Assembly (NCBI GenBank): GCA_000004695.1
Contig: CM000154.2
Span: 1,568,001 to 1,632,000, forward strand
Source of the DNA: Dictyostelium discoideum
Taxonomy: Eukaryota
Direction: 5' to 3'
DNA length: 64,000 nucleotides
A program made the position numbers and the translations under genes. Positions within the stretch are counted from its first letter, which is position 1. Each line of letters opens with the position of its first letter. Shown here piece after piece: positions 22,588 to 60,048 of the stretch. The notes beneath the pieces are model-generated. The model was not told the DNA's origin, did not search any database, and saw only the letters and a program-made list of their open reading frames with translations.

Positions 22588-22687
22588 NNNNNNNNNNNNN
22601 NNNNNNNNNNNNNNNNNNNNNNNNNNNNNNNNNNNNNNNNNNNNNNNNNNNNNNNNNNNNNNNNNNNNNNNNNNNNNNNNNNNNNNN
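22588..22687. other. Assembly gap (100 N)
   Basis: Run of exactly 100 n inside the retrotransposon. Confidence 1.
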
Positions 22688-23769: not shown

Positions 23770-24073
23770 CTCGATGGGATTCCTTTGAATCGGCGATTTG
23801 GTAAGTTAGATCTGTAGATCGTGGTGGATTGGTGATTTTTTTTGAAAGATTGGTTAAAATTGACCGAGATTAAGGATAGAAAAGGATGAATTACTTTTCA
23901 CGTGTATCTTGTATCCTCTTGATCGCGGTACGGGTTTTTTAAGATGGTATTGATCTATATCAAATAGTCTTCTGATTGTTTGTAATATGGTGAAATAATA
24001 AACAAAATTTGGTTACGCAGTTGTTTTAATAAGGAATCGATCATGTATACTTAGGTATGGTCCTATAAAATTT

Positions 24074-24146
24074 CGCCTAGACATGGGATCGAACCATGGA
24101 CCTAGCGGTTAACAGCCGCTCGCTCTGCCTACTGAGCCATCCAGGC
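24074..24146 (-). tRNA. tRNA-Asn (anticodon GTT), 73 nt
   Basis: The minus-strand sequence is GCCTGGATGGCTCAGTAGGCAGAGCGAGCGGCTGTTAACCGCTAGGTCCATGGTTCGATCCCATGTCTAGGCG. The 7-bp acceptor stem pairs (one G-U). The anticodon loop is CT-GTT-AA. The T-arm is CCATGG-TTCGATC-CCATG, which includes the B-box GGTTCGATCC. A T4 terminator follows directly 3'. Confidence 0.95.
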
Positions 24147-24197
24147 ATTTTTATATTTTTTTATAAATTTAGCTCCTTCTGATTTTTGATAAAGAAA

Positions 24198-43472: not shown

Positions 43473-47213
<3,741 letters not shown>

Positions 47214-53859: not shown

Positions 53860-54545
53860 ATCTTTATTTAAATTCTATATATATATATATAAATTTTTGT
53901 TTATACAGTGATTATAAAATAAAAAATAATGAATTAAAAAAAAAAATAAAAAAATAATAAAAAAAAAAAAGTGGGGTTTTTTTGATTTAAAAAAAAATAA
54001 AAAAATAAAAAAATAAAAAAAAAAATTAAAAAAATAAAAAAAAATTTCTAAATTTTAATATAAAATTAAAATATTAAAAAGGGAATTTGTAAATTGATTT
54101 ATGTTTTTTTTTTTTTTTTTTTTTTTGTAATAATTTTTTTTTTTTTTTTTTTTTATTTGTGTAAACATTAGTTTTAAGTAAAATATTTTATATGCAAATA
54201 TTTTATTTTAACTTTTTTTGGTAAAAAATAAATAAATAAAAAAATTTTAATTTAATAAAAAAAAAAAATTACAAAAAAAAAGGTATCAAAAATGTTAAAC
54301 CATCAGAATTCCCACTAATAATTTGTTTTTTATTTATTTTATTTTTTTTTTTTTTAATTTTTTTTTTTTTTTGATATCTTTTTTTTTTTTTTTTTTGATA
54401 TCTTTTTTTTTTTTTTTTTGATATCTTTTTTTTTACGAACCAGTAAAAAAAAAAAAAAAAGAACGATGAGTCAATTGTTTTGTTTTTTGTTTAGAAAAAA
54501 TATTTTTTAATTATTTTTAATTTTAATTTTATTTTACTACCTTAT

Positions 54546-55654
54546 ATGTGTATTAAAATAATAATGAATCCATTTACAGATTATCAAGTACAATTTTTTG
54601 AAAGAATAAAATTGAAACCAAGAATAATTGAATCATTAGATGATATTTCAGAAGTTTTAGTAGCTTGTTCAAAAGTATTTACATTTGAAAATTTAGATAT
54701 CATAAGTAATACTCAAGAAGCATTAACAAGAAAAGTTTTAATAAAACAAGTTTTAATTAATAAACAAGGTGGATTATGTTATAAAGCAAATACTTTATTA
54801 TATTATTTCCTTTTAGATTTCGGTTTAAATGTTCACCAAACTAGAGCAACTTGTGAAAATCAAGGTATTTTTCTTTTTTTTTTTTTATTTCATTTTATTT
54901 TATTTTATTTTATTTTATTTTATTTTATTTTATTTTTAGTTTTAGTTTTGTTAATAAATATTTTTTTTTTTTTAAAGAGAGTCATAGTCGTTGGAATATT
55001 GGCCATGGTCATATGATTAATATATTGAATTTTGAAAATAAATTATATGTAATGGATGTTGCATTTGGATGTAATTTATCATTAAGGCCAGTACCAATTA
55101 CAGATGATGGTAGTGAAGTTATTGAATCTTGTATTGGATTATATAGAGTTATTAAAAGAGAAAATATAGTTGCTGGAGTATATCATTATACACATATTTT
55201 AGAACATAGAAAACCAGATACTTATTTAATTGAATCTGCAAAGAATTGGGTAATTGGTTATGCATTTGATCCTTTATTAATTTGTAAAAATGATGGTGAT
55301 GATGATGATGATGATAATAATAATAATAATAATACTCATCAAACTCAAATTCAACAATTAGTAATAGATGATCCAAATAAAGATTTTTGTGTAAAGCCAT
55401 TAGCAACTAAATTAATAAATAATACAGATAATAATAATAATAATAATTCAATAGCGACATTAACCTTAAATTCATTCACACTTACAAATTGTAAAACTGG
55501 CGAAAAAATTAAAACAAATTTTGATAATGATAATTTATTTGAACAATTTAATCAACATTTAATTTCAATTTTTAATTTACCACCTTTAAAAATTATACCT
55601 CAAATATTTTTAAATCAAACATCAAATTTTCCTATAAATAATTTAAATAGTTAA
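54546..55654 (+). CDS. Arylamine N-acetyltransferase (NAT) family protein, copy 1. join(54546..54864,54978..55654)
   Basis: ...FENLDIISNTQEAL...NKQGGLCYKANTLLYYFLLDFG (NAT catalytic Cys, compare human [23 protein letters not shown]) ...ENQG|ESHSRWNIGHGHMINILNFENKLYVMDVAFG (His/Asp of the triad, compare HLLLQVTIDGRNYIVDAGFG). A phase-1 intron follows ENQG (GTATTT...AAAG). Confidence 0.8.
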
Positions 55655-55806
55655 ATAATAAGATTTAAAAAAAAAAAAAAAAATTTTTAAAAAAAATAAA
55701 TTAATTAATAATTTTTATTTCTTTCGATATATCTTATTTAATAAAAACAAAAAACTGCGAAAAAAATAAAAAAAATAAAAAGAATTAATTGTTCTAAAAA
55801 TGAAAA

Positions 55807-55906
55807 NNNNNNNNNNNNNNNNNNNNNNNNNNNNNNNNNNNNNNNNNNNNNNNNNNNNNNNNNNNNNNNNNNNNNNNNNNNNNNNNNNNNNNNNNNNNNN
55901 NNNNNN
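55807..55906. other. Assembly gap (100 N)
   Basis: Run of 100 n between NAT copies 1 and 2. Confidence 1.
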
Positions 55907-56316
55907 TAACTTTTTTTATTACTTTTTGGGTCACTATCTTTTTTTGGTCAAAAAGCAAGATTTTTTTTATGTTACAATCTTTTTTTGGTAATAACTTTTT
56001 TTATGTAAAATAAAAAATAAAAAAAAAAAATACCCCAAAAAAGGGTCGGAATAGAAGGAGTTTAAAAACATTGCTGACATCATTGATTGACGGTTAAAAA
56101 ATAAAATTAAAAAAAAAAAAAAAAATTTAATGTAAAATTAACAAAAATATGATTCCGAACTTTTTTGGGTAATTCCGAGCTTTGGTATAAGATTTTTTCG
56201 AATTCTTATTATTATTTTTTTTTTATTTAACTTTTTTTTTTTTTTTTTTTTTTTCATATTTTATTTTAGTCTAATAAAAGTTTAAAAACAAATATATATA
56301 TATAAACAAATAAAAA

Positions 56317-57307
56317 ATGGAACCAAATCCAATATTTAGCGAATTTCAATTAGAATTTTTTAAAAGAATTAAAATGCAACCAAAATCAATAGAAACATTA
56401 AATGATGTTTCAGAAGTGATGAGTGGTTGTGCACAAATTTTTTCATTTGAAAATTTAGATGTAGTTGCAAATACAACTGAACCTTTAAATAGAGAAGTGA
56501 TAATTCAACAACTTGTAAATAATAAACAAGGTGGATTATGTTATAAAATTAATTCTGTATTTTATTATTTTATTAAAAGTTTTGGTTTTAATATTTATCA
56601 AGTTAGATGTTGTGTTGAAAATCAAGGTATGTTTTTTTGGTTAAAAAAAAAAAGTTGAAAAAAAAAAAAAAAATTTTATTAACAAATTTTTAAAAAAATA
56701 AAAAATAAAAAATAAAGAAACACATGATTGTTGGCAAATTAATGGTGCACATATTATAAATATAATTGAATATGAAAATAAAAAATATTTAGCAGACGTT
56801 GCATTTGGATGTAATTTATCATATGAACCAATTCCATTTTCAGAAGAGATTATTGAATCATGTACAGGTTTATATCGTATTCGTAAAGTTGATAATATTA
56901 TTAGGGATATTAAATATACATATCTTTTAGAATTTAAAAAACCAGATTCATTTTCACCAGAATCTGCTCGTTTATGGACCAATGGTTATGCATTTGATCC
57001 ATTGGTAAAAGCAATTGATATTGATGAAAATGATAAAATTGATAGTCATGCAACTCAAATTCAACAATTAATTATTGATGATCCAACAAAAGAATTTAGT
57101 GTTAAACCTTTAGCTACAAAAGTTGTAAACAATGAATCAATAGCAACTTTAACCTCAAATTCATTCACTTTAACAAATTGTAAAACTGGTGAAAAAACAA
57201 AAGTTACCTTTGATATCAATAATGAAATCAAACAATTAGAACAATTTAATCAACATTTAATTTCAATTTTTAATTTACCACCTTTAAAATTTTTACCAAA
57301 AATTTAA
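56317..57307 (+). CDS. Arylamine N-acetyltransferase family protein, copy 2. join(56317..56626,56718..57307)
   Basis: MEPNPIFSEFQLEFFKRIKMQPKSIETLNDVSEVMSGCAQIFSFENLDVVANT...NKQGGLCYKINSVFYYFIKSFGFNIYQVRCCVENQG|ETHDCWQINGAHIINIIEYENKKYLADVAFGCNL.... The intron position and phase match copy 1 (GTATGT donor). Exon 2 is open from the acceptor, and the ORF track shows only its last 101 aa. Confidence 0.8.
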
Positions 57308-57651
57308 AAATAATATGAAAATAAAAAAATAAAAAAAAAATAAAAAAAAAATAAAAAAAATAAAAAAAAAAAAACAATTGATTCGTGTCTGAAAGTGTGG
57401 ATTTAAAAAAGAATCTAAATTTTAATTCAGGAATCTTCTTTTTTTAGAAAATGTTTGTGCAATAATTTATTTTTTTTTTTATTTTTTTAATTTTTTTTTT
57501 TTTATTTTTAATTTTAAAAGAAAAAAAAAAAAAAAAAAACAAAAAAAAATAAAAAAAATAAAAAAACCATATTTTTTTTCAACCTTTTACAACAGATATA
57601 TCTAAAAAAAAAAAAAAAATAAAAAAAAATAAAAAAAATAAAAAAAAAAAA

Positions 57652-57989
57652 ATGGAAGCAATTTCAATATTTTCAGATTATCAATTACAATTTTTTAAAA
57701 GAATTGGAATGAAACCAAAACCAATTGAAACATTAGATGATGTTTCAGATGTAATGAAAGCATGCTCAAATGTATTTTCTTTTGAGAATTTAGATATTGT
57801 ATCTAATTCATGTGAACCTTTAAATAAGGATGTATTAATAAAACAAGTAATATGTAATAATCAAGGTGGACTATGTTATAAAATCAACACTTTATTATAT
57901 CATTTTCTTTTAGAATTTGGTTTCAAAATTCATATAATTAGAGGTAGTGTTGAAAATCAAGGTATGTGAATAAAAATTAATTTTTAAAA

Positions 57990-58030
<41 letters not shown>

Positions 58031-58671
58031 TAATAATTGTTTACATTAATAATTTTATAGAAACTCATTCAGATTGGAATATTCCAACTGGTCATATGAT
58101 TAATATAATTAATTTTGAAAATAGGTTATATGTTGTTGATGTTGCATTTGGATGTAATCTTTCATTGAGACCAATTCCAATTACAGATGATGGTAGTGAA
58201 GTAGTTGAATCCTGCACAGGTTTATATCGTGTTCGTAAAGTTGAAAATTGTGTTTCTGGAAAATATAATTATACACATATTCTAGAACATAGGAAATTGG
58301 ATAGTTTTTTAATTGAATCTGGAAAGACCTGGGTGACAGGTTATGCATTTGATCCATTATTAATTGTTGATAATAATAATAATAATGAAAAAACAACCCA
58401 CCAAACACTTGTACAACAATTAGTAATTGATGATCCAACTAAAGAATTTAGTACTAAACCTTTGGCTACTAAAATTGTAAATGATGGTTCATCATTCTCT
58501 ATTGCAACTTTAACTGCAAATTCATTCACACTTACAGATTGTAAAACTGGTCAAAAAACTAAAACCAATTTTGATAATGATAAATCATCATTTGAACAAT
58601 TTAATCAACATTTAATTTCAATTTTTAATTTACCACCTTTAAAAACAATTCCGCCAATATTTTTAAATTAA
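57652..58671 (+). CDS. Arylamine N-acetyltransferase family protein, copy 3. join(57652..57961,58061..58671)
   Basis: MEAISIFSDYQLQFFKRIGMKPKPIETLDDVSDVMKACSNVFSFENLDIVSNS...NNQGGLCYKINTLLYHFLLEFGFKIHIIRGSVENQG|ETHSDWNIPTGHMINIINFENRLYVVDVAFGCNLSLRPIPITDDGSEV.... Same phase-1 intron position. Confidence 0.8.
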
Positions 58672-59369
58672 TCAGAAAAAATAATAAAAAATAAAAATAA
58701 AAATAATACTTTTATTTTTTTTATTTTTTTTTTTAAAAAAATTTTAATTTTTTATTTATTTTTTTTTTTTTTTTTTATGTCGACTAAACGATACATATAA
58801 AAAAGACAACCGGAAATCTTTGGGCGATAATTTATTGGTGATTGTCTTTGGGCGAAATTTAATTGAAAAATGTTTTTTGTTTTTTTTTTTTTTTTTTATA
58901 TTTTTTTTTTTTTTTTTTTTTAAAATAAAATTTTTATTACTGTTATTTTTTTTTTTTATTTTATTTTATTTTTTTTATAAAATATATACTAATCTAAATT
59001 TAGTACTTTATAGGATCTTTTATAACAATTTCTTTTTTTTATACAAATAAACGAAACATATAAAGGTAGCTCAAAAAAATTAAAAACAAATAATTGGAAA
59101 TTAATAATAAAAAAAAAAAAAAACCCACACACAAGCCTTTGGTATCATCCTTTAACACAAAAATCTAATCAAAAAAAAAATAAAAAAAAATAAAAAAATA
59201 AAAAATAAAAGAAAAGAAAAAAAATGAAAAATAAAAAACACAAAGGTTTAATTCAAACCAATAACGAACACACAACACAAAATTAACACTACCACCATTA
59301 TTCTCATAACACACAACGATCATGGGTTAATTATTTTTATTATTATTGTTGGTTTACAAAATAATTAAA

Positions 59370-59401
<32 letters not shown>

Positions 59402-59535
59402 AAAAAAAAGTGATTGTGAGAGATTATTAATTTTTTAAATATTTTGTGTGTGTTTTTCAAAACAATAATAATAAAAAATCAATAAAATTAAAAAATTAAA
59501 AAATTAAATATAATAATAATAATAATATCAGCTAC

Positions 59536-59569
<34 letters not shown>

Positions 59570-59736
59570 AAGAGAGTGTGCAGGGGTAAAATAATTTTAA
59601 ATATTTTGTTTTTAGTTAATTATTATTATTTTTTTTCTTTTATTTGTTTATTTTTAATTTTATTTTATTTTTTGTTTTTTTGTTTTTAAAATATTTTTTT
59701 TTTATTTATTTTTTTTTAAAAATTTTATATTTTTTT

Positions 59737-59836
59737 NNNNNNNNNNNNNNNNNNNNNNNNNNNNNNNNNNNNNNNNNNNNNNNNNNNNNNNNNNNNNNNN
59801 NNNNNNNNNNNNNNNNNNNNNNNNNNNNNNNNNNNN
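59737..59836. other. Assembly gap (100 N), followed by ~150 bp of low-quality-looking sequence
   Basis: A run of n is followed by ttaaggggatttaaggggttttaaggggattt...ttttcccccccggggggtaagg, with homopolymer stutter atypical of this genome. Confidence 0.9.
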
Positions 59837-59984
59837 TTAAGGGGATTTAAGGGGTTTTAAGGGGATTTAAATTTTTTTGGAAACCTTACCGGTATTTTTA
59901 AATTATTTTGCCCCAAAACCCCCTTCCAAAAAATTTTCCCCCCCGGGGGGTAAGGTTGGTTAATTTTTAAAAAATATTCTGGGG

Positions 59985-60048
<64 letters not shown>

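What the first reader, a model, noticed from the sequence alone, without database searches (positions are those of the whole stretch)
54546..58671. Tandem triplication of arylamine N-acetyltransferase genes with a conserved phase-1 intron
Three head-to-tail paralogs (~1.7 kb period). Each has exon 1 ending …VENQG and exon 2 starting E[ST]H…W…GHMINI. They retain the NAT Cys/His/Asp catalytic triad context, and their C-terminal halves share …HQT.IQQLVIDDP.K(E/D)F…KPLATK…NSFTLT.CKTG.K.K..FD…FEQFNQHLISIFNLPPLK. They are diverged enough (about 50-70% identity) to suggest sub-functionalisation of a xenobiotic or small-molecule acetylation function. A 100-N gap between copies 1 and 2 could hide a further copy.
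Basis: partly seen in the sequence, partly recalled or inferred. Interest (0 to 1): 0.5.

Follow-up and report, generated by a model that had tools for sequence, protein, structure and literature searches.

The report
Three tandem Dictyostelium NAT genes, already annotated

Summary
Three head-to-tail, two-exon genes lie on the + strand: 54564-55654, 56317-57307 and 57652-58671. Each has one phase-1 intron at the same codon (…ENQ|E…). The spliced products (325, 299 and 306 aa) are residue-for-residue identical to D. discoideum AX4 "Probable arylamine N-acetyltransferase 1/2/3" (Q54IU9, Q54IU8, Q54IU7). The NAT nomenclature group lists (DICDI)NAT genes, so nothing here is new.

All three match Pfam PF00797 (E 1e-21 to 1e-27). 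All keep the Cys-His-Asp triad on alignment to solved NATs, and the model of NAT3 matches the NAT fold. Pairwise identity is 55-69%.

The 100-N gap hides no extra copy. In a gapless assembly it is 84 bp: a poly-A run plus the missing arm of a 53-bp perfect palindrome.

The triplet, its order and its intron are conserved in D. firmibasis and D. dimigraforme. Each ortholog group has 100% bootstrap support and dN/dS of 0.12-0.33, so all three copies are long-maintained functional genes.

One extra result: the nearest relatives outside dictyostelids are Bacillales NATs, many of them plasmid-borne. More distant dictyostelid NATs have no intron. This suggests an old bacterial origin followed by intron gain, but my tree resolves it only weakly.

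The parts
54564..54864 (+). NAT1 exon 1 (codons 1-100 plus the first base of Glu101). The catalytic Cys72 codon TGT is at 54777-54779.
   Evidence: The spliced model equals Q54IU9 / XP_636704 exactly. Codon position.
54865..54977 (+). NAT1 intron: 113 nt, phase 1, GTATTT...AAAG, containing an (ATTTT)n run.
   Evidence: This is the only open splice found. The same position and phase occur in 4 genomes.
54978..55654 (+). NAT1 exon 2 including the stop codon. His112 is at 55010-55012 and Asp127 at 55055-55057. It carries poly-Asp/Asn low-complexity inserts.
55807..55906 (.). 100-N assembly gap between NAT1 and NAT2. The true content is 84 bp: an A-rich run plus the left arm of a palindrome. It holds no gene.
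   Evidence: Window 52000-55806 matches L002 3713-7506 and window 55907-59736 matches L002 7591-11400 at 99.4% identity. Sequence shown.
55916..55968 (.). Right arm of a 53-bp perfect palindrome. The 6-nt loop is at 55910-55915 and the left arm lies inside the gap.
   Evidence: DNA fold of L002 7540-7655 gives -57.6 kcal/mol, z = -19. Coordinates were mapped through.
56317..56626 (+). NAT2 exon 1. Cys75 codon is at 56539-56541.
   Evidence: The spliced model equals Q54IU8 / XP_636690 exactly.
56627..56717 (+). NAT2 intron: 91 nt, phase 1, GTATGT...AAAG.
56718..57307 (+). NAT2 exon 2 including the stop codon. His115 is at 56750-56752 and Asp130 at 56795-56797.
57652..57961 (+). NAT3 exon 1. Cys75 codon is at 57874-57876.
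   Evidence: The spliced model equals Q54IU7 / XP_636691 exactly.
57962..58060 (+). NAT3 intron: 99 nt in the window, 87 nt in the gapless AX4-like assembly because a T-run differs in length. Phase 1, GTATGT...TATAG.
58061..58671 (+). NAT3 exon 2 including the stop codon. His115 is at 58093-58095 and Asp130 at 58138-58140.

Best explanation
The window is Dictyostelium discoideum AX4 chromosomal DNA. The region carries the annotated genes for arylamine N-acetyltransferase family proteins NAT1, NAT2 and NAT3.

Mechanism (inferred from established knowledge of the NAT family, not tested here). Each protein is a roughly 300-aa NAT-fold enzyme that should work by the family's ping-pong route. The Cys of the Cys-His-Asp triad takes the acyl group from acetyl-CoA as a thioester, then passes it to the nitrogen of an arylamine or hydrazine, or to the oxygen of an N-hydroxyarylamine. 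The natural substrates are unknown. The likeliest are aromatic amines from soil, prey bacteria or fungi, or Dictyostelium's own metabolites.

History (partly shown). A two-exon ancestor was duplicated twice at the DNA level, in tandem. The intron was therefore copied along with the gene, which rules out retroposition. This happened before D. discoideum, D. firmibasis and D. dimigraforme diverged. All three copies have since been kept under purifying selection.

Deeper origin (inferred). The wider dictyostelid NAT family is most similar to Bacillales NATs over the full length, and its other sampled members have no intron. The family probably came from a Bacillales-type bacterial gene, and the NAT1-3 lineage gained its intron later.
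For: Identity: the three spliced models are exact matches to EAL63200/XP_636704 (Q54IU9), EAL63187/XP_636690 (Q54IU8) and EAL63188/XP_636691 (Q54IU7). The NAT nomenclature group uses (DICDI)NAT1 and (DICDI)NAT4 (PMC11213898), and a TPA entry names a D. discoideum NAT6.

Family: PF00797 hits are far above the cutoff. The PDB sequence search finds only NAT-family entries (arylamine N-acetyl/acyltransferases and the NAT-fold amide synthase GdmF), best 4dmo at 1.9e-44 and 3lnb at 5e-33. In the profile search these are 2.6e-50 and 5.9e-44. Cys, His and Asp align with the triad columns of Salmonella NAT and of human NAT1. C75, H115 and D130 are invariant in 15 sequences. The AF2 model of NAT3 (pLDDT 66.7, pTM 0.65) has NAT structures as its top 40 Foldseek hits.

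Age and retention: the order pgmA(-), NAT1, NAT2, NAT3, Ank/PH gene is conserved in D. firmibasis and D. dimigraforme. The intron sits at the same codon and phase in all 12 genes of 4 genomes. The NAT1-3 clade and each ortholog group have 100/100 NJ bootstrap support. Ortholog dN/dS is 0.12-0.33 for all three genes.

Origin: in an exhaustive scan of 1.84 billion representatives, the next hits (about 35% identity, E 1e-33 to 1e-27) are dictyostelids interleaved with Bacillales. All 8 non-dictyostelid neighbours that carry an organism name are Bacillales. The top 25 plasmid hits are all Bacillus cereus-group or Brevibacillus, at 89-98% coverage. Human NAT1 matches only the N-terminal 133 residues, at 7.6e-11. 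The D. purpureum, Cavenderia and Tieghemostelium NAT genes checked have lengths of exactly 3 x (aa + 1), so they have no intron.
Against: No enzymatic, expression or knockout data could be found for these genes, so activity, acyl donor and substrate are inferred from family membership alone. The AF2 model is of only moderate confidence, and I could not measure triad geometry. The backbone of the origin tree is weak: dictyostelid monophyly has 41% bootstrap, the 'inner' dictyostelid + Bacillales group 69%, and NAT1+NAT3 57%. Synonymous differences between paralogs are saturated (pS about 0.38), so the duplications cannot be dated from dS.
Confidence: 0.85

Rival explanations
1. The proteins have the NAT fold but are not xenobiotic acetyltransferases. 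They would use another acyl donor or act as amide synthases in Dictyostelium secondary metabolism, like the Fusarium FDB2 malonyltransferase, the GdmF/RifF macrolactam synthases or the Streptomyces N-acyltransferase.
For: Such enzymes are in the hit lists: GdmF 8ot2/8oom, 8k51 and 7qi3. PMC11213898 argues that secondary metabolism is a major role of microbial NATs and flags (DICDI)NAT4 as possibly lying in a gene cluster. From my own knowledge, Dictyostelium has many polyketide synthases. Three diverged paralogs are compatible with different substrates.
Against: The neighbours are housekeeping or signalling genes: phosphoglucomutase, a PI3/PI4-kinase, and an ankyrin/PH protein. There are no PKS, NRPS or tailoring genes. 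The closest solved relatives by a wide margin are Bacillus NATs deposited as arylamine N-acetyltransferase / N-hydroxyarylamine O-acetyltransferase. PMC11213898 reports no antiSMASH hit for protist NATs other than NAT4.
Confidence: 0.12
2. One or more of the three copies is a decaying, non-functional duplicate.
For: NAT1 carries long poly-Asp/Asn inserts. Vertebrate NAT clusters evolve by birth and death and include pseudogenes (PMC3601968).
Against: All three have intact reading frames, canonical splice sites and the full triad in four genomes. Ortholog dN/dS is 0.12-0.33 for each gene. The low-complexity inserts fall in a poorly conserved stretch that is modelled at low confidence.
Confidence: 0.03
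3. Alternative origin: dictyostelid NATs were inherited vertically from an early eukaryote. On this view the similarity to Bacillales reflects transfer in the opposite direction or uneven evolutionary rates, not acquisition from bacteria.
For: NATs occur in many eukaryotic groups, including another amoebozoan lineage, the Centramoebida (PMC11213898).
Against: Full-length similarity to Bacillales NATs is as strong as to other dictyostelid NATs: 125.6 bits for Metabacillus against 130.6 for D. purpureum. Human NAT1 reaches 45 bits over the N-terminal part only. Every named non-dictyostelid neighbour is from Bacillales. The distant dictyostelid members have no intron.
Confidence: 0.3
4. The triplication, or the gap next to it, is an assembly artefact: either a collapsed or expanded repeat, or a hidden further copy.
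For: The reference has a 100-N gap at 55807-55906, and clearly low-quality sequence follows a second gap at 59837-59990.
Against: Three independent gapless assemblies show the same three genes. The copies differ by 31-45% at the protein level, so they cannot be mis-assembled reads of one gene. The gap is 84 bp.
Confidence: 0.01

Closest known systems
D. discoideum AX4 'Probable arylamine N-acetyltransferase 1/2/3' (UniProt Q54IU9, Q54IU8, Q54IU7; XP_636704, XP_636690, XP_636691); (DICDI)NAT genes of the NAT nomenclature
   Same: The proteins are identical, residue for residue, to the three spliced models. The order and flanks are the same in the gapless AX4-like assembly.
   Different: Nothing differs; these are the same genes. 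The only additions here are the gap closure, the conservation of intron and synteny across species, and the selection estimates.
(BACCR)NAT3 of Bacillus cereus (PDB 4DMO) and the Bacillus anthracis NAT (PDB 3LNB)
   Same: These are the best solved relatives over almost the full length, at about 30-35% identity. They share the GGLCY Cys motif, the His, the three-domain order and the C-terminal helix.
   Different: 4DMO has Glu where the Dictyostelium proteins have the canonical Asp ('lylievgfg' against 'lyvvdvafg'). The Dictyostelium genes carry a spliceosomal intron, AT-rich codons, low-complexity inserts and a 10-30 residue longer C-terminus with the invariant motif EQFNQ(H/Y)LISIFNLP.
Human NAT1 / NAT2 (PDB 2PQT, 2PFR) and vertebrate NAT clusters
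   Same: They share the fold and the Cys-His-Asp triad. They are also small tandem clusters of paralogs that evolve by duplication (PMC3601968).
   Different: Sequence similarity is detectable only in the N-terminal 130-odd residues (E about 1e-10, 16-18% structural identity). Vertebrate coding regions have no intron (PMC3601968), whereas these three genes each have one coding intron.
Other dictyostelid NATs (D. purpureum XP_003287909, Cavenderia fasciculata XP_004356142, Tieghemostelium lacteum KYQ89981, Heterostelium pallidum NAT2, D. discoideum NAT6)
   Same: Same family at 31-39% identity. Tandem pairs also occur in Cavenderia (L006 6001-6867 and 7155-7994) and probably in Tieghemostelium, judging from adjacent accessions.
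   Different: The three that were checked have no intron. None is a close ortholog of NAT1-3. The D. purpureum gene sits in a different neighbourhood, next to an SNF2/bromodomain gene.

Membership tests
Arylamine N-acetyltransferase family (Pfam PF00797, EC 2.3.1.5-type NAT fold) | Significant match to the family profile above the curated threshold, with no competing family | tested here: met
   PF00797 is the only hit: 77.6, 96.2 and 94.0 bits against a cutoff of 22.8. For NAT1 the match covers only profile positions 2-152, because low-complexity inserts interrupt the C-terminal half.
Arylamine N-acetyltransferase family (Pfam PF00797, EC 2.3.1.5-type NAT fold) | Catalytic Cys-His-Asp triad at the aligned positions | tested here: met
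   The triad is Cys72/His112/Asp127 in NAT1 and Cys75/His115/Asp130 in NAT2 and NAT3. These align with the Cys, His and Asp columns of Salmonella NAT (1e2t) and human NAT1. They are invariant in 15 orthologs and paralogs and in an alignment with Bacillales NATs.
Arylamine N-acetyltransferase family (Pfam PF00797, EC 2.3.1.5-type NAT fold) | [quoted passage not shown] | tested here: met
   The motifs are present in variant form: F(S/T)FENL, QGGLC, (G/A)H(M/I)I and (V/M/A)DV. The catalytic residues within them are kept, and the GGLCY variant is shared with Bacillales NATs.
Arylamine N-acetyltransferase family (Pfam PF00797, EC 2.3.1.5-type NAT fold) | Three-domain fold: helical bundle, beta-barrel, alpha/beta lid | tested here: met
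   The AF2 model of NAT3 has helices 9-88, then strands 92-200, then a mixed C-terminal part. Its Foldseek top 40 are all NAT structures, with TM up to 0.74 on the target. Model confidence is only moderate (pLDDT 66.7).
Arylamine N-acetyltransferase family (Pfam PF00797, EC 2.3.1.5-type NAT fold) | Acetyl-CoA-dependent N-acetylation of arylamines or hydrazines through an acetyl-Cys intermediate | not testable with these tools
   No biochemical data on the Dictyostelium enzymes were found in the searchable literature.
Tandem gene triplication by DNA-level duplication | Same orientation, adjacent, shared exon-intron structure, and paralogs that form one clade | tested here: met
   All three genes are on the + strand with no gene between them. 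The intron position and phase are identical. The NAT1-3 clade has 100% bootstrap support.
Bacterium-to-Dictyostelia horizontal gene transfer | Recipient clade nested within, or sister to, one bacterial group with strong support, to the exclusion of other eukaryotes | tested here: inconclusive
   All named nearest neighbours are Bacillales, and eukaryotic NATs in the PDB are far more distant.

The most novel reading that the evidence does not exclude
Dictyostelid NATs descend from a Bacillales-type NAT, possibly plasmid-borne as in soil B. cereus, B. mycoides and B. thuringiensis. It would have been taken up from bacterial prey before the dictyostelid radiation. In the D. discoideum lineage one copy then gained a spliceosomal intron in a surface loop and was triplicated. 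That would give a dated example of intron gain and family expansion in a gene of bacterial origin. I could not check whether the 2010 NAT phylogeny paper (Glenn et al., FEBS Lett) already says this.
Probability: 0.45. Interest if true: 0.3.

Novelty: already known. Interest (0 to 1): 0.12.

Why it matters
It matters little beyond bookkeeping. The genes have been in the AX4 annotation and UniProt for years, and the NAT nomenclature group lists D. discoideum NAT genes.

The useful outputs are these:
- A clean confirmation that a tool-less reading of raw sequence got the gene structure and family right.
- Closure of the reference gap: 84 bp, caused by a perfect palindrome, with no hidden gene.
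- Evidence that all three paralogs are old, syntenic and selectively maintained. This makes them reasonable targets for anyone studying how a soil amoeba handles aromatic amines from prey or competitors.
- A lead that the family is of Bacillales origin with later intron gain.

Tried and rejected
- The bacterial promoter/terminator scan of 53860-59700 found fewer promoter-like sites than shuffles and is meaningless for a eukaryote.
- An Rfam scan of the whole window found only a tRNA-Asn at 24074-24146, and nothing in or near the cluster.
- The search for related loci on bacterial genomes failed three times. With A2 the patterns were too clade-specific (67 pattern matches, none confirmed). With A3 and A4 no stretch was conserved enough.
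- The second homologous-protein run, with a dictyostelid profile (A5), returned only 16 Dictyostelium proteins and did not even recover some query members. It gave no named outgroups and was a poor use of the budget.
- Gene conversion between paralogs was tested by sliding-window pN/pS. The two ends have somewhat lower pS (0.22-0.29 against 0.32-0.56). Orthologs show the same dip, and the invariant C-terminal peptide uses mostly preferred AT-rich codons, so I saw no convincing conversion tract.
- Synteny between the D. purpureum NAT locus and the window was rejected. The large neighbouring ORF at 43473-47213 has no SNF2 or bromodomain hit.
- Literature: Glenn et al. 2010 is not held. The supplements of PMC11213898 held as text contain no DICDI rows. 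No paper in the library links Dictyostelium NATs with expression, function or gene transfer.
- The palindrome is not present as such in the divergent D. discoideum strain, D. firmibasis or D. dimigraforme. It is therefore a recent AX4-lineage feature, not a conserved element.
Full report
**What is there.** The window is 23% G+C. Between 54.5 and 58.7 kb it carries three + strand reading frames, each broken once. I tried every AG acceptor after the conserved donor AATCAAG|GTA. For each gene, one intron gives an open frame that keeps the conserved E[ST]H junction. NAT3 also has a second open-frame acceptor at 58072, which would delete ETHS; it is rejected because the annotated protein keeps those residues. 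The resulting genes are:
- NAT1: 54564-54864 + 54978-55654, 325 aa, 113-nt intron.
- NAT2: 56317-56626 + 56718-57307, 299 aa, 91-nt intron.
- NAT3: 57652-57961 + 58061-58671, 306 aa, 99-nt intron.

All three introns are phase 1 and split a Glu codon directly after ENQ.

**Identity.** An exact-sequence look-up shows that the three spliced proteins are the annotated D. discoideum AX4 proteins XP_636704, XP_636690 and XP_636691. UniProt names them Q54IU9, Q54IU8 and Q54IU7, 'Probable arylamine N-acetyltransferase 1, 2, 3' (for NAT3). The NAT nomenclature group uses (DICDI)NAT1 as its protist reference sequence and discusses (DICDI)NAT4 (PMC11213898). A TPA entry names a D. discoideum NAT6. The finding is therefore correct and already known.

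**Family membership.**
- Pfam gives PF00797 (Acetyltransf_2) as the only family, at 78-96 bits against a cutoff of 22.8.
- Against PDB sequences, every hit is a NAT-family entry. The best two by a wide margin are Bacillus enzymes: 4dmo at 1.9e-44 and 3lnb at 5e-33. Human NAT1 scores 7.6e-11 over the N-terminal 133 residues only. A 15-sequence profile gives the same picture.
- In these alignments the Cys of GGLCYK, the His of G/A-H-M/I-I-N-I and the Asp of (V/M/A)DVAFG fall on the catalytic Cys, His and Asp of Salmonella NAT and human NAT1. In 4dmo the third position is Glu, as that entry's title states.
- The triad is invariant in 15 orthologs and paralogs and in an alignment with Bacillales NATs. 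Its codons are located.
- An AlphaFold2 model of NAT3 from the shallow alignment is of moderate quality (pLDDT 66.7, pTM 0.65). It has the expected order of helical bundle, barrel and lid, and its 40 best Foldseek hits in the PDB are all NAT structures.
It lines up with the C-terminal F-N-x-x-L...F helix of the Bacillales NATs and, weakly, with human NAT1.

Protein identities are 69% (NAT1-NAT3), 60% (NAT2-NAT3) and 55% (NAT1-NAT2), as estimated. The spacing is 1753 and 1335 bp, not a constant 1.7 kb. tblastn finds no further copy anywhere in the 64 kb.

**The gap.** A gapless AX4-like assembly (GCA_054883475.1, CM142511.1; locus L002) encodes the same three proteins. It aligns at 99.4% with the window on both sides of the gap. 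Window 55806 corresponds to L002 7506 and window 55907 to L002 7591, so the 100 Ns stand for 84 bp. Those 84 bp are an A-rich run plus the left arm of a perfect 53-bp palindrome with a 6-nt loop. Its right arm is window 55916-55968. As single-stranded DNA it folds at -57.6 kcal/mol, z = -19. This very likely explains why the Sanger-era assembly broke there (inference). No gene is hidden.

**Age and maintenance.** The order pgmA (minus strand), NAT1, NAT2, NAT3, ankyrin/PH gene is the same in a divergent D. discoideum strain, in D. firmibasis and in D. dimigraforme. In all 12 genes of four genomes the intron is at the same codon and phase, with lengths from 87 to 219 nt. In a neighbour-joining tree with 100 bootstraps:
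- the NAT1-3 clade and each of the three ortholog groups have 100% support;
- the NAT1+NAT3 pairing has 57%.

Both duplications therefore predate these species, and there has been no whole-gene homogenisation since. Nei-Gojobori dN/dS between orthologs is 0.12-0.33 for each gene, so all three are under purifying selection. Synonymous differences between paralogs sit at a plateau (pS about 0.38) and cannot date the duplications. A sliding-window comparison gave no convincing gene-conversion tract. Retention of three distinct lineages fits functional divergence, but retention for dosage would look the same. Nothing here tests expression or substrate.

**Where the family comes from.** An exhaustive HMMER scan of 1.84 billion cluster representatives puts NAT1-3 in one 50% cluster. 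The next hits all lie near 35% identity. Naming 20 of them showed two groups:
- Other dictyostelids: D. purpureum, Cavenderia, Tieghemostelium, Heterostelium, Synstelium, Polysphondylium violaceum, D. dimigraforme, D. discoideum NAT6, and one unnamed EukProt sequence that clusters with them.
- Bacillales: Metabacillus, Paenibacillus, Bacillus testis, the B. cereus group and Sporosarcina.

All eight non-dictyostelid sequences that carry an organism name are Bacillales. They score as high as the dictyostelid ones (125.6 bits for Metabacillus, 130.6 for D. purpureum). A tblastn of NAT3 against 72,556 plasmids gives the same answer. The top 25 are all B. cereus-group or Brevibacillus plasmids, covering 89-98% of the protein at about 31% identity, and 106 of 157 matching records are Bacillus. 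The D. purpureum, Cavenderia and Tieghemostelium genes I fetched are exactly 3 x (aa + 1) bases long, so they have no intron.

The simplest reading is an old acquisition of a Bacillales-type NAT by the dictyostelid lineage, with intron gain in the ancestor of NAT1-3 before the triplication. I hold this at about 45-55%, for three reasons:
- NJ support for dictyostelid monophyly is 41%, and for the dictyostelid + Bacillales group 69%.
- I could not read the 2010 phylogeny paper.

**Surroundings.** Nothing around the cluster suggests a biosynthetic gene cluster. Upstream are a PI3/PI4-kinase gene and phosphoglucomutase; downstream is an ankyrin/PH-domain gene. Opposite-strand ORFs inside the genes are short and low-complexity. 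Rfam finds nothing here.

**Verdict.** This is a correct reading of an ordinary, already annotated tandem gene family. Novelty: already known. Interest: low. The one lead with some novelty is the Bacillales affinity with later intron gain. It needs a proper, named, maximum-likelihood phylogeny.

Noticed in passing
window 55907-55968, with the other half hidden in the N-gap 55807-55906; L002 7541-7652: There is a perfect 53-bp palindrome with a 6-nt loop between NAT1 and NAT2 (DNA fold -57.6 kcal/mol, z = -19). Only its right arm is in the reference, and the gap coincides with the left arm. It is not found as a palindrome in the divergent D. discoideum strain, D. firmibasis or D. dimigraforme, so it appears to be a recent inverted duplication in the AX4 lineage.
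   Followed up: partly
window 59837-59990 (after the N-gap 59737-59836): The sequence here (runs such as ccccccc/gggggg and 'aaggggattt') looks like a low-quality read end. It does not align by megablast with the gapless assembly. That assembly has 323 bp of ordinary AT-rich sequence (L002 11401-11723) with a recognisably similar but cleaner tail.
   Followed up: partly
window 54373-54425: About 150 bp upstream of the NAT1 start, three GATATC sites are each embedded in long T-runs with a period of about 24 bp. The AX4-like assembly has three and the divergent D. discoideum strain has two. D. firmibasis and D. dimigraforme have none.
   Followed up: partly
window 54546-54563: An in-frame ATG lies 18 nt upstream of the annotated NAT1 start and would add MCIKII. 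Orthologs start at MNPFT/MDPFT, and NAT2 and NAT3 align from there, so the annotated start at 54564 is the more likely one.
   Followed up: partly
L006 6001-6867 and 7155-7994 (Cavenderia fasciculata); Tieghemostelium KYQ93982/KYQ93983: Independent tandem pairs of intronless NAT genes occur in other dictyostelids, so tandem duplication of NATs seems to recur in the group.
   Followed up: no
window 24073-24147 (- strand): A tRNA-Asn (GTT) gene, found by both ARAGORN and Rfam. It is the only RNA family hit in the window.
   Followed up: no
window 55296-55350 and 55420-55455 (NAT1 exon 2): Poly-Asp/poly-Asn low-complexity inserts interrupt the C-terminal domain of NAT1. Their length varies between D. 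discoideum strains (325, 327 and 316 aa versions), and they truncate the Pfam match for NAT1.
   Followed up: no
window 22588-22687: A third 100-N assembly gap, which I did not examine.
   Followed up: no
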